1,005 bases of DNA from a phage, in sequence record OR846573.1; one strand, written 5' to 3'. Shown here piece after piece: positions 3 to 1,005 of the stretch. A model generated the notes under the pieces. That model made no database searches, had not been told where the DNA came from, and worked only from the letters and a program-made list of their open reading frames with translations. Made by a program: the position numbers and the translations under genes. The first letter of the stretch is position 1, and the number at the start of each line of letters is the position of its first letter.

Positions 3-58
3 TGTGACGTACACCGGACAACAACACGACGCATTGCAGATGTGCCAGCCCTGACACA
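3..58 (-). promoter_or_regulatory. Two TGT-N12-ACA dyads (3-20 and 41-58), candidate Ogr/delta-type late-activator sites of a promoter probably firing leftward off the window
   Basis: Seen in sequence: TGT at 3-5 with ACA at 18-20, and TGT at 41-43 with ACA at 56-58; centres are 38 bp apart. Established knowledge: P2/P4 late promoters carry TGT-N12-ACA centred near -55, and P4 promoters have a second delta site near -18. If transcription runs leftward, the centres (49.5 and 11.5) place the start about 6 bp left of position 1, with a -10-like CACAAT on the minus strand at 6..1. The dyad is self-complementary, so direction is not fixed by the sequence; a rightward start near 67 is the alternative. 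Confidence 0.35.
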
Positions 59-136
59 GGAGACTCATCCTCAGACCGGCAAGCCAGGAAAAGGTCGCAG
101 GAAAAACCGGCTTACTGTTTGTTTTTTTATATTTTA

Positions 137-241
137 CTGTTCACCTCTGTTCACCATAAGAAAAAAGATAAGTAATACAGTAAGTTAAAGGGTGAACAAT
201 CGCAGTAATGACTGTTCACCGTCTGTTCACCACTGTTCACC
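137..241. repeat. Iteron cluster: six copies of octamer TGTTCACC (five direct, one inverted), P4 type I iteron-like; candidate crr/origin-type cis replication element
   Basis: Seen in sequence: TGTTCACC at 138-145, 148-155, 213-220, 224-231 and 234-241 (all with a preceding C, i.e. CTGTTCACC), and inverted as GGTGAACA at 191-198. Spacing within clusters is 10-11 bp. Background is AT-rich and non-coding. The identification with P4 alpha-protein iterons is from memory, not from a search. Confidence 0.8.
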
Positions 242-261
242 CGTTGATGGGCTTTTTATGC

Positions 262-280
262 TGTTTATTACTGTTTATTT
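262..280 (+). repeat. Two tandem degenerate iteron-like repeats, CTGTTTATT x2
   Basis: Seen in sequence: CTGTTTATT at 262-270 and 272-280, 10 bp apart; they share CTGTT with the strong iterons but diverge in the 3' half. They may be decayed iterons or chance in AT-rich DNA. Confidence 0.3.
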
Positions 281-399
281 TTATTAATTCACTGAAATAA
301 ATAAGAAAAAACAATTTGCATTTCACTATAAAAAATTCCAGTTCCTTCAGAACCCTTTGAGACCCTTCCAGTCCGGATGGATAAAAAACACACAGCCAT

Positions 400-786: not shown

Positions 787-1005
787 TGATGCCCGCTCTG
801 CAAAAACTCCCTTTTTCTGGCTTGCCTTTTTCCGGCATTTGCGGATATAGTTTTTCCGCTGCCGCAAAATCGGCAGCCGGGCGTGAGAACCCGAGTATGT
901 TATCGGCGACATATGACGCGCCATGCGTCTTTTTTTGTGTCGCAATCAACGCCACAGAGCGCCAGATTATGGTGTGGCGTGTGGTTTGCCGTGCAGGTAT
1001 GATCC
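783..1005 (+). CDS. Possible 3'-truncated ORF of unknown function, start overlapping the upstream stop (ATGA); alternative internal start at 897
   Basis: Seen in sequence: three in-frame ATGs at 783-791; the first overlaps the TGA of the upstream gene. The frame stays open for 74 codons to the window edge (about 3 percent chance in random sequence), but two minus-strand frames are also open here, so stop-poor composition may explain it. The translation (MMMPALQKLPFSGLPFSGICGYSFSAAAKSAAGRENPSMLSATYDAPCVFFCVAINATERQIMVWRVVCRAGMI...) is Cys-rich and not recognisable to me. A hairpin plus T-run lies inside it (915-936). Confidence 0.25.
   Translation, partial: MMMPALQKLPFSGLPFSGICGYSFSAAAKSAAGRENPSMLSATYDAPCVFFCVAINATERQIMVWRVVCRAGMI
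822..851 (+). promoter_or_regulatory. Possible sigma70 promoter: -35 TTGCCT (822-827), 18-bp spacer, -10 TATAGT (846-851)
   Basis: Seen in sequence: 4/6 and 5/6 matches to the consensus hexamers with an acceptable spacer. Position immediately downstream of the regulator gene would fit an early promoter of a P4-like left operon, but this is by eye only. Confidence 0.25.
858..877. promoter_or_regulatory. Perfect 7-bp inverted repeat GCTGCCG-caaaat-CGGCAGC; candidate operator or 5' RNA stem-loop
   Basis: Seen in sequence: GCTGCCG (858-864) and its reverse complement CGGCAGC (871-877) around a 6-nt loop. It lies just downstream of the putative -10 at 846-851, i.e. at the predicted transcript start. 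No T-run follows on either strand, so it is not an intrinsic terminator. Confidence 0.3.
915..936 (+). terminator. Candidate weak intrinsic terminator or attenuator: GACGC-gccat-GCGTC hairpin followed by seven T
   Basis: Seen in sequence: 5-bp GC-rich stem (915-919 / 925-929), 5-nt loop, then TTTTTTT at 930-936. Strand-specific: the minus-strand transcript would have the A-run before the hairpin. The stem is short, so termination is likely partial or regulated. Confidence 0.3.

What the first reader, a model, noticed from the sequence alone, without database searches (positions are those of the whole stretch)
137..241. Phased cluster of TGTTCACC octamers: P4-type iterons, probable cis replication element
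A single octamer occurs six times in about 100 bp: five direct copies with 10-11 bp spacing and one inverted copy. The chance expectation for any given octamer in 1 kb on both strands is about 0.03. TGTTCACC is the sequence I know as the type I iteron of phage P4, bound by the alpha primase-helicase at ori1 and crr. The AT-rich setting and the position upstream of a Vis/AlpA-like gene fit a crr-like element of a P4-family satellite. This is the strongest non-coding signal in the window and is explained by no ORF.
Basis: partly seen in the sequence, partly recalled or inferred. Interest (0 to 1): 0.6.

Follow-up and report, generated by a model that had tools for sequence, protein, structure and literature searches.

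The report
Replication origin of P4-type satellite prophage
The six TGTTCACC repeats are the long-known replication origin (ori1) of a phage-P4-type satellite prophage sitting in the E. coli chromosome, so the signal is real and functional but ordinary and already annotated.

Summary
TGTTCACC occurs exactly six times, at 138, 148, 191 (inverted), 213, 224 and 234, and none of 200 shuffles reached six. The window is 93.9% identical to phage P4. The six octamers match one-for-one the six 'ori type 1 repeats' inside P4's annotated rep_origin.

The window is 100% identical to a P4-type prophage at tRNA-Leu in E. coli O157:H7 and related strains. That prophage encodes an alpha primase-helicase 99% identical to P4's, including the origin-binding domain solved as PDB 1ka8. 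It also carries a separate crr, 97% identical to P4's, about 4.7 kb away just past the alpha gene.

Across 62 distinct elements from many Enterobacterales genera the six-site geometry persists. Octamer columns are 89% identical to the window, against 48% for the flanks.

Verdict: already known, low interest.

Side observation: the neighbouring 'type 2 repeats' look like a swappable binding array for the helper phage's Cox/Apl protein. They are P2 cox-boxes in P4, 186 Apl-type boxes in other satellites, and a third, unassigned type here.

The parts
138..145 (+). type I iteron 1 (TGTTCACC)
   Evidence: Exact match. Equals the P4 'ori type 1 repeat' at 9406-9413.
148..155 (+). type I iteron 2 (TGTTCACC)
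   Evidence: Exact match. Equals the P4 repeat at 9396-9403.
156..190 (.). 35-bp AT-rich spacer (7/35 = 20% GC) between iterons 2 and 3; candidate site of initial strand opening
   Evidence: Read directly from the sequence and from the composition profile. Many of its columns are 80-99% conserved across 62 elements. It differs from P4 at only 2 positions.
191..198 (-). type I iteron 3 (inverted copy)
   Evidence: Exact match on the - strand. Equals the P4 repeat at 9353-9360.
213..220 (+). type I iteron 4
   Evidence: Exact match. Equals the P4 repeat at 9331-9338.
224..231 (+). type I iteron 5
   Evidence: Exact match. Equals the P4 repeat at 9320-9327.
234..241 (+). type I iteron 6
   Evidence: Exact match. 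Equals the P4 repeat at 9310-9317.
251..345 (.). second AT-rich tract (16-26% GC in 50-bp windows) flanking the iteron block, inside P4's annotated rep_origin
   Evidence: Composition profile and the extent of P4 rep_origin. It is less conserved than the iterons, so whether it takes part in unwinding is an inference.

Best explanation
Window 138-241 is the core of ori1, the vegetative and plasmid replication origin of a phage-P4-type satellite. Here the satellite is integrated as a prophage of about 11.7 kb at the leuX tRNA-Leu gene of E. coli.

Proposed mechanism:
1. The six TGTTCACC octamers (two direct, a 35-bp AT-rich spacer, one inverted, three direct, each set phased at about one helical turn) are bound by the C-terminal winged-helix origin-binding domain of the element's own alpha protein.
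2. Alpha combines a zinc-ribbon/Toprim primase, an SF3 helicase and this DNA-binding domain in one polypeptide.
3. Alpha bound at ori1 acts together with alpha bound at a second iteron cluster, crr, which lies about 4.7 kb away just past the alpha gene.
4. AT-rich DNA is opened, alpha's helicase loads and its primase makes the primers.
5. Host Pol III, SSB and gyrase then carry out bidirectional theta replication without DnaA, DnaB, DnaC or DnaG.

Shown here: sequence identity with the annotated P4 ori, presence of an intact cognate alpha, presence of crr, and strong purifying conservation of the sites and their geometry. Taken from the P4 literature or inferred, not tested here: binding, ori-crr cooperation, opening and host-factor independence.

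In the integrated, immune state the origin is presumably silent because alpha is not expressed.
For: - The window is 93.9% identical to P4 X51522 8554-9550.
- The six octamers fall at the same offsets as P4's six 'ori type 1 repeat' features inside rep_origin. The 105-bp block differs from P4 at only 2 spacer bases.
- Window 100-300 aligns to P4 ori over 191 nt at 97.4%, but only through 8-13 nt words to crr.
- The window is 100% identical in many E. coli chromosomes, and 1059 of 5426 complete genomes have a match.
- In NZ_CP018247 the gene order is int - defence genes - psu - delta - sid - [window: ori, vis] - ... - DUF5375 (position of P4 ORF106) - alpha.
- Alpha there is 777 aa and 99% identical to P4 alpha. 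It matches the Zn_Ribbon_Prim, Toprim, D5_N and Pox_D5 domains, and residues 671-770 match PDB 1ka8 at E = 1e-63.
- A crr homolog 97% identical to P4's lies directly after alpha.
- Only 12 exact octamers occur in the 25 kb examined: 6 in ori, 5 in crr and 1 elsewhere, against 0.66 expected.
- attL and a near-perfect attR bound the element, and P4 homology of 97.4% runs from psu to attR.
- In 62 distinct alpha-linked elements from many genera, including Enterobacter, Klebsiella, Pantoea, Serratia, Pectobacterium and Rahnella, with alpha identity down to 57%, the six-site geometry (0, +10, +53 inverted, +75, +86, +96, within 2 bp) is retained.
- In that set, octamer columns are 89% identical to the window, against 65% for spacers and 48% for flanks, and TTCAC is nearly invariant.
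Against: - No binding or replication experiment was or could be done here. The functional statements rest on P4 papers that are not held in the library and are cited from my own knowledge.
- The window's true source is not given. The context is inferred from 100%-identical database matches.
- The attR core carries a 1-nt deletion, and the left third of the element differs from P4 (int 83% identical; a restriction-modification cargo replaces cII/gop/beta). Whether this particular prophage can excise and replicate is therefore untested.
- Clusters at the crr position are detectable in only 36 of 61 diverged loci. The two-site architecture may not be universal in the wider family.
Confidence: 0.95

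Rival explanations
1. It is the crr (cis replication region) of a P4-family satellite: the auxiliary iteron cluster that ori needs in cis.
For: crr contains the same octamer family (one search lists P4's crr repeats as TGTTCACC, TGTTCACA, TATTCACC and TCTTCACC). The same protein is expected to bind both sites.
Against: P4's crr is annotated at 4291-4590, next to attP and directly after the alpha gene. It consists of two 120-bp direct repeats. The window shows none of these features: it lies between sid and vis, has no 120-bp duplication, and shares only iteron-length words with crr. The element's real crr is found elsewhere, at L002 16965-17228.
Confidence: 0.02
2. The repeats are arm-type binding sites for the tyrosine integrase, or sites for the Vis excisionase, and belong to the recombination machinery rather than to replication.
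For: A tyrosine integrase and a Vis/AlpA protein are encoded in the element. Phased direct repeats are typical of arm-type and excisionase sites.
Against: P4's annotated attP arm repeats are T(T/C)GGGGGCA(T/C)A-type 12-mers, unrelated to TGTTCACC, and they cluster around the att core. The att cores of this prophage lie about 6.4 kb to the left and about 5.3 kb to the right of the iterons. The octamer tracks the alpha-type origin-binding region rather than the integrase. It recurs next to an alpha-like helicase/origin-binding protein in a differently organised satellite (L006).
Confidence: 0.01
3. The sequence is a genuine P4-type ori by descent, but it is inert in this host: a relic in a cryptic, immobilised prophage.
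For: The attR core has a 1-nt deletion and the left part of the element has been remodelled. A second, partial integrase and IS fragments lie just beyond the right end.
Against: All six octamers are perfect. Alpha is full length and 99% identical to P4's. crr, vis, sid, delta and psu are intact. Identical or near-identical copies are maintained in about 1000 E. coli genomes. This argues for selection or recent mobility rather than decay.
Confidence: 0.1
4. Besides acting as an origin, the alpha-bound iteron array works as a regulatory barrier or operator between the divergent late promoters Psid and PLL.
For: The array sits between TGT-N12-ACA activator-type sites at 41-58 and 400-417, which flank it on the sid and vis sides.
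Against: Nothing found here supports transcriptional control by alpha, and the iterons are more than 80 bp from either activator site. This reading is an add-on to the origin function, not an alternative to it.
Confidence: 0.08

Closest known systems
Phage P4 ori (ori1), GenBank X51522 / NC_001609, rep_origin 9086-9809 with six 'ori type 1 repeats'
   Same: Same octamer, same number of copies (6), same orientations and same spacings. The position between sid and vis is the same. The cognate alpha is 99% identical and the crr partner 97% identical.
   Different: Two base substitutions in the 35-bp AT-rich spacer. The adjacent 'type 2 repeat' block (346-375) has been replaced by unrelated 10-bp repeats. 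The element is chromosomally integrated and carries different cargo genes on its left side.
Phage P4 crr (cis replication region, 4291-4590)
   Same: Same iteron family, and presumably the same binding protein.
   Different: crr consists of two 120-bp direct repeats containing degenerate iterons in mixed orientation. It lies directly after alpha, next to attP. The window has none of these properties.
Iteron-type plasmid and phage origins (for example pSC101, R6K, P1/F Rep-iteron origins, lambda ori-O)
   Same: All have phased direct repeats bound by an element-encoded initiator, next to AT-rich DNA.
   Different: Here the initiator is itself the helicase and primase (Toprim + SF3 helicase + winged helix in one chain). 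According to the P4 literature (own knowledge) the system is independent of DnaA, DnaB, DnaC and DnaG, and it needs a second distant iteron cluster in cis.
Origins of Gram-negative PICI / capsid-encoding satellites (Pri-Rep plus ori downstream; Fillol-Salom et al. 2018, PMC6092414)
   Same: L006, a satellite encoding capsid and small-terminase genes, has ten TGTTCACC-type sites in 289 bp next to a primase. The helicase and C-terminal region of that primase are 48% identical to alpha residues 290-771.
   Different: The gene organisation differs, the primase N-terminus is unrelated, and the ori lies directly after the primase gene rather than between late promoters.

Membership tests
P4-type ori1 (alpha-dependent iteron origin) | Six TGTTCACC type I iterons arranged as two direct, an AT-rich spacer of about 35 bp, one inverted and three direct, each set phased at 10-11 bp | tested here: met
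   Positions coincide one-for-one with P4's annotated repeats.
P4-type ori1 (alpha-dependent iteron origin) | Location in the intergenic region between sid (leftward) and vis (rightward) | tested here: met
   The sid homolog ends 33 bp to the left of the window, and vis lies at 520-786.
P4-type ori1 (alpha-dependent iteron origin) | Cognate alpha primase-helicase with a C-terminal winged-helix origin-binding domain encoded in the same element | tested here: met
   This was met in the 100%-identical genomic context; alpha itself lies outside the 1005-bp window.
P4-type ori1 (alpha-dependent iteron origin) | A second iteron cluster (crr) in cis, directly after alpha | tested here: met
   (L002 16965-17228, 97% identical to P4 crr).
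P4-type ori1 (alpha-dependent iteron origin) | Alpha binds the iterons, and the fragment supports alpha-dependent replication | not testable with these tools
   This needs EMSA or footprinting and a plasmid complementation assay. It is reported for P4 itself (Ziegelin et al. 1993 EMBO J 12:3703; Tocchetti et al. 1999 J Virol 73:7308; own knowledge, papers not held).
P4 crr | Two 120-bp direct repeats, each with several iterons, placed between the 3' end of alpha and attP | tested here: not met
   The window has no 120-bp duplication, is in the wrong position, and shares only iteron-length similarity.
Integrase arm-type sites of P4 attP | TTGGGGGCAT-type 12-mers flanking the att core | tested here: not met
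   The sequence is different, and the att cores lie about 5-6 kb away.

The most novel reading that the evidence does not exclude
The iteron array itself is textbook. The neighbouring block, historically annotated as 'ori type 2 repeats' (window 346-375, within 338-385), may not be an origin element at all. It may instead be a swappable sensor for the helper phage's Cox/Apl excisionase-regulator, placed just upstream of PLL. P4 carries P2 cox-boxes there. Many other satellites carry phage-186 Apl-type TGGCAA boxes at the same place. This window carries a third type (CTSRAAGGGT at 10-bp phasing) whose cognate helper is unidentified. If correct, the block would be a readable helper-specificity code for P4-like satellites. 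The O157:H7-type element would then be predicted not to respond to P2 Cox.
Probability: 0.45. Interest if true: 0.45.

Novelty: already known. Interest (0 to 1): 0.12.

Why it matters
For the finding itself it matters little. The practical value is annotation: current RefSeq records leave this intergenic region unlabelled. The six-site geometry could serve as a compact, highly conserved marker for P4-type satellites across Enterobacterales. The side observation could matter more if confirmed, because it would let helper specificity of satellites be read from sequence.

Tried and rejected
- A full-text search for the octamer returned 2,174 papers, and the listed hits were unrelated to P4. Useless.
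- Searches for the primary P4 replication papers failed (look-ups). They are not held, so the mechanism is cited from my own knowledge.
- Three literature searches were rejected for terms that were too short.
- Two early scripts failed for trivial reasons, and one timed out.
- The attR search allowing up to 3 mismatches found nothing, because attR has a 1-nt deletion. BLAST then found it.
- Helper-sensor side lead, BLAST step: a BLAST of the window's variant repeats against phages found nothing meaningful.
It returned only sibling satellites plus two contigs, L093 and L122, whose ORF lists show no int-repressor-cox layout.
- Helper-sensor side lead, WPhi: a resemblance seen by eye between the window's boxes and WPhi's Pe-Pc repeats was not supported by the cluster test. 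That test also failed its positive control (P4 boxes against P2), so the result is inconclusive rather than negative.
- Readings rejected: crr, integrase arm sites, Vis sites, and a coding explanation (only 29-48 aa ORFs overlap).

Full report
1. OBSERVATION

TGTTCACC occurs six times in the window with no mismatches. Five copies are on the + strand (138-145, 148-155, 213-220, 224-231, 234-241) and one is on the - strand (191-198). Allowing one mismatch adds no further site. In 200 dinucleotide-preserving shuffles the mean count was 0.98 and the maximum 4, so the cluster is far beyond chance. Only 29-48 aa ORFs overlap the block.

2. IDENTITY

The window is 93.9% identical over 99% of its length to phage P4 (X51522 8554-9550, reverse strand).

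P4's feature table lists six 'ori type 1 repeat' features inside 'rep_origin 9086-9809'. In the oriented locus they fall at exactly window+500, site for site and strand for strand. The pairwise alignment shows the whole 105-bp block identical to P4 except for two bases in the AT-rich spacer.

P4's other iteron cluster, crr, is annotated at 4291-4590, between the alpha gene and attP, as two 120-bp direct repeats. Window 100-300 aligns to P4 ori over 191 nt at 97.4%. Against crr it shares only words of 8-13 nt. The element in the window is therefore ori (ori1), not crr.

3. CONTEXT

The window is 100% identical to chromosomes of many E. coli strains, mostly O157:H7. In total 1059 of 5426 complete genomes have a match, always chromosomal.

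In NZ_CP018247 the layout is as follows:
- tRNA-Leu, a tyrosine integrase and an HTH protein;
- a restriction endonuclease and a cytosine methyltransferase;
- psu, delta and sid on the opposite strand;
- the window, containing ori and vis;
- an Icd-like ORF, two small ORFs and a DUF5375 protein (the position of P4 ORF106);
- a 777-aa primase-helicase.

That primase-helicase is 99% identical to P4 alpha. It has Zn_Ribbon_Prim, Toprim, D5_N and Pox_D5 domains. Residues 671-770 match the solved P4 alpha C-terminal domain, PDB 1ka8, at E = 1e-63.

Directly after alpha lies a crr homolog 97% identical to P4's. In the 25 kb examined the exact octamer occurs 12 times: six in ori, five in crr and one elsewhere, against 0.66 expected.

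P4 homology of 97.4% runs from psu to an attR core that carries a 1-nt deletion. attL is the 3' end of the tRNA gene. The 88-aa ORF at 520-786 is 99% identical to P4 ORF88 (Vis) and matches Pfam Phage_AlpA.

4. EVOLUTIONARY CONSTRAINT

I retrieved 80 alpha-encoding loci from species-representative genomes. They span 57-100% alpha identity and many genera, including Enterobacter, Citrobacter, Klebsiella, Raoultella, Kluyvera, Pantoea, Erwinia, Edwardsiella, Serratia, Pectobacterium, Rahnella and Rosenbergiella.

- A geometry-aware scan found the same six-site arrangement (0, +10, +53 inverted, +75, +86, +96, within 2 bp) about 1.6-2.6 kb upstream of alpha in 61 of them. Adding the window gives 62 distinct sequences.
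- In the alignment of these 62 sequences, octamer columns are on average 89% identical to the window. Internal spacers are 65% identical and the +-60 bp flanks 48%.
- Positions 3-7 (TTCAC) are essentially invariant. Position 2 varies among G, A and C, and position 8 between C and T.
- Much of the 35-bp spacer (156-190, 20% GC) is also strongly conserved.
- More diverged E. coli elements, whose intergenic region is only 69-80% identical, keep the geometry exactly.
- Sites with the TTCAC core reach 5.4 per 100 bp in the ori core and 1.1 per 100 bp in the 400 bp after alpha. Elsewhere the density is about 0.23-0.28 per 100 bp.
- At least four such sites follow alpha in 36 of 61 loci.

5. MECHANISM

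From the anatomy, and from the P4 literature, the octamers are binding sites for alpha's C-terminal winged-helix domain. The literature is cited from my own knowledge because the papers are not held: Flensburg & Calendar 1987 J Mol Biol 195:439; Ziegelin et al. 1993 EMBO J 12:3703; Diaz-Orejas et al. 1994 Nucleic Acids Res 22:2065; Tocchetti et al. 1999 J Virol 73:7308; Yeo et al. 2002 Mol Microbiol 43:855.

According to those papers:
- ori1 and crr are both needed in cis;
- the minimal ori1 is about 123 bp, holding the six iterons and a 35-bp AT-rich region;
- removing an iteron or changing the spacing inactivates it;
- replication is bidirectional theta-type and needs alpha, SSB, Pol III and gyrase, but not DnaA, DnaB, DnaC or DnaG.

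What is shown here is identity with that origin, an intact partner protein, the partner site, and purifying selection on the sites and their phasing. Binding, opening and firing in this particular element are inferred. A held paper confirms alpha's architecture of primase, SF3 helicase and winged helix (PMC2777425). Another confirms that alpha is the essential P4 replication protein (PMC8628076).

6. RIVALS

- crr is excluded by position and alignment.
- Integrase arm sites are excluded. P4's arm repeats are TTGGGGGCAT-type 12-mers near the att core, and the att cores are 5-6 kb from the iterons.
- A 'dead relic' reading is possible but unlikely, given perfect iterons and intact alpha, crr, vis, sid, delta and psu.
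- An added regulatory role between Psid and PLL cannot be excluded, but nothing supports it.

7. NOVELTY

None for the finding. It is an annotated feature of a model phage and is present in about a fifth of complete E. coli genomes.

8. SIDE OBSERVATIONS

(a) P4's three 'ori type 2 repeats' read TTAAAGTCA / TTAAAGCCA / TTAAAGCAA. This matches the P2 cox-box consensus TTAAA(G/C)NC(A/C). P2 Cox binds such boxes, phased at 10-11 bp, upstream of P4 PLL and thereby activates the prophage. WPhi Cox does not activate P4 (PMC3936717, PMC5009727).

In the window this block (346-375) is replaced by different 10-bp-phased repeats. On the complementary strand they read CTGGAAGGGT CTCAAAGGGT TCTGAAGGAA. 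The DNA on both sides stays P4-like.

Across the 62 elements, many carry three or more direct repeats phased at 10-11 bp at about this position, and the repeat sequence differs from element to element.

A common class is TGGCAA(A/T)C:
- The same box type makes up phage 186's annotated Apl-binding arrays at pR-pL and at attP.
- 186-like viral contigs, with Apl 92% identical, carry two such arrays 1.68 kb apart.
- Scanning phage 186 with the boxes of satellite L005 puts the top cluster inside the annotated Apl site (2 of 60 shuffles reach it).

Vis is the same protein (same accession) in the window's element and in L008, which has P4-type boxes. The repeats are therefore unlikely to be Vis sites.

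I could not identify the helper that matches the window's box type. A resemblance to WPhi's Pe-Pc repeats did not pass the cluster test, and that test also failed its positive control. No held paper describes this pattern.

(b) A differently organised satellite, L006, with capsid and small-terminase genes, has ten TGTTCACC-type sites beside a primase. The helicase and C-terminal region of that primase are 48% identical to alpha, and its N-terminus is unrelated.

(c) TGT-N12-ACA sites, the Ogr/delta activator type (own knowledge), lie at 3-20, 41-58 and 400-417.

(d) Rfam places isrK at 858-935 and c4-a1b1 at 845-897. This corresponds to the P4 RNA-immunity region (own knowledge).

Noticed in passing
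window 338-385 (P4 'ori type 2 repeats' correspond to 346-375): P4 has three P2-type cox-boxes here (TTAAAGNCA). The window has unrelated 10-bp-phased repeats instead (complementary strand CTGGAAGGGT / CTCAAAGGGT / TCTGAAGGAA). Other satellites carry yet other repeats at this position, commonly TGGCAAAC boxes identical in type to phage 186 Apl sites. This suggests a swappable helper Cox/Apl sensor upstream of PLL. The cognate helper for the window's type was not found.
   Followed up: partly
L006 6923-7211 (NZ_CP024815, E. coli CREC-629): A satellite with major capsid, head decoration and small terminase genes has ten TGTTCACC-type sites in 289 bp next to a 605-aa primase. The helicase and C-terminal region of that primase are 48% identical to P4 alpha 290-771, but its N-terminus is unrelated. 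The alpha-type recognition module and its iteron are therefore shared between two satellite architectures, so cross-activation of origins is conceivable.
   Followed up: partly
window 3-20, 41-58 and 400-417: Three TGT-N12-ACA sites, the Ogr/delta late-activator motif (own knowledge), flank the origin on the sid side and the vis side. They place the iterons between the divergent late promoters Psid and PLL. Only 2 of 200 shuffles reach three sites.
   Followed up: partly
window 845-935: Rfam matches isrK (858-935, 71 bits) and c4-a1b1 (845-897, 51 bits), both above their gathering scores. This is the P4 RNA-immunity region (own knowledge). It overlaps an ORF that RefSeq annotates as 'Icd-like protein'. 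Short stretches (897-944) also match putative antirepressor genes of unrelated prophages.
   Followed up: no
L002 7367-9774 and 17453-17471: In the host prophage P4's cII/gop/beta region is replaced by an HTH protein, a type II restriction endonuclease and a cytosine methyltransferase. This is the known defence-cargo hotspot of P4-like satellites. The attR core has a 1-nt deletion relative to attL.
   Followed up: partly
L009-L011, L045 (genome-contig hits): Alpha genes 98-100% identical to E. coli P4 alpha sit on short contigs assigned to MAGs labelled Clostridiales, Ferruginibacter, Ruminococcus and 'bacterium'. These are almost certainly mis-binned Enterobacteriaceae contigs.
   Followed up: no
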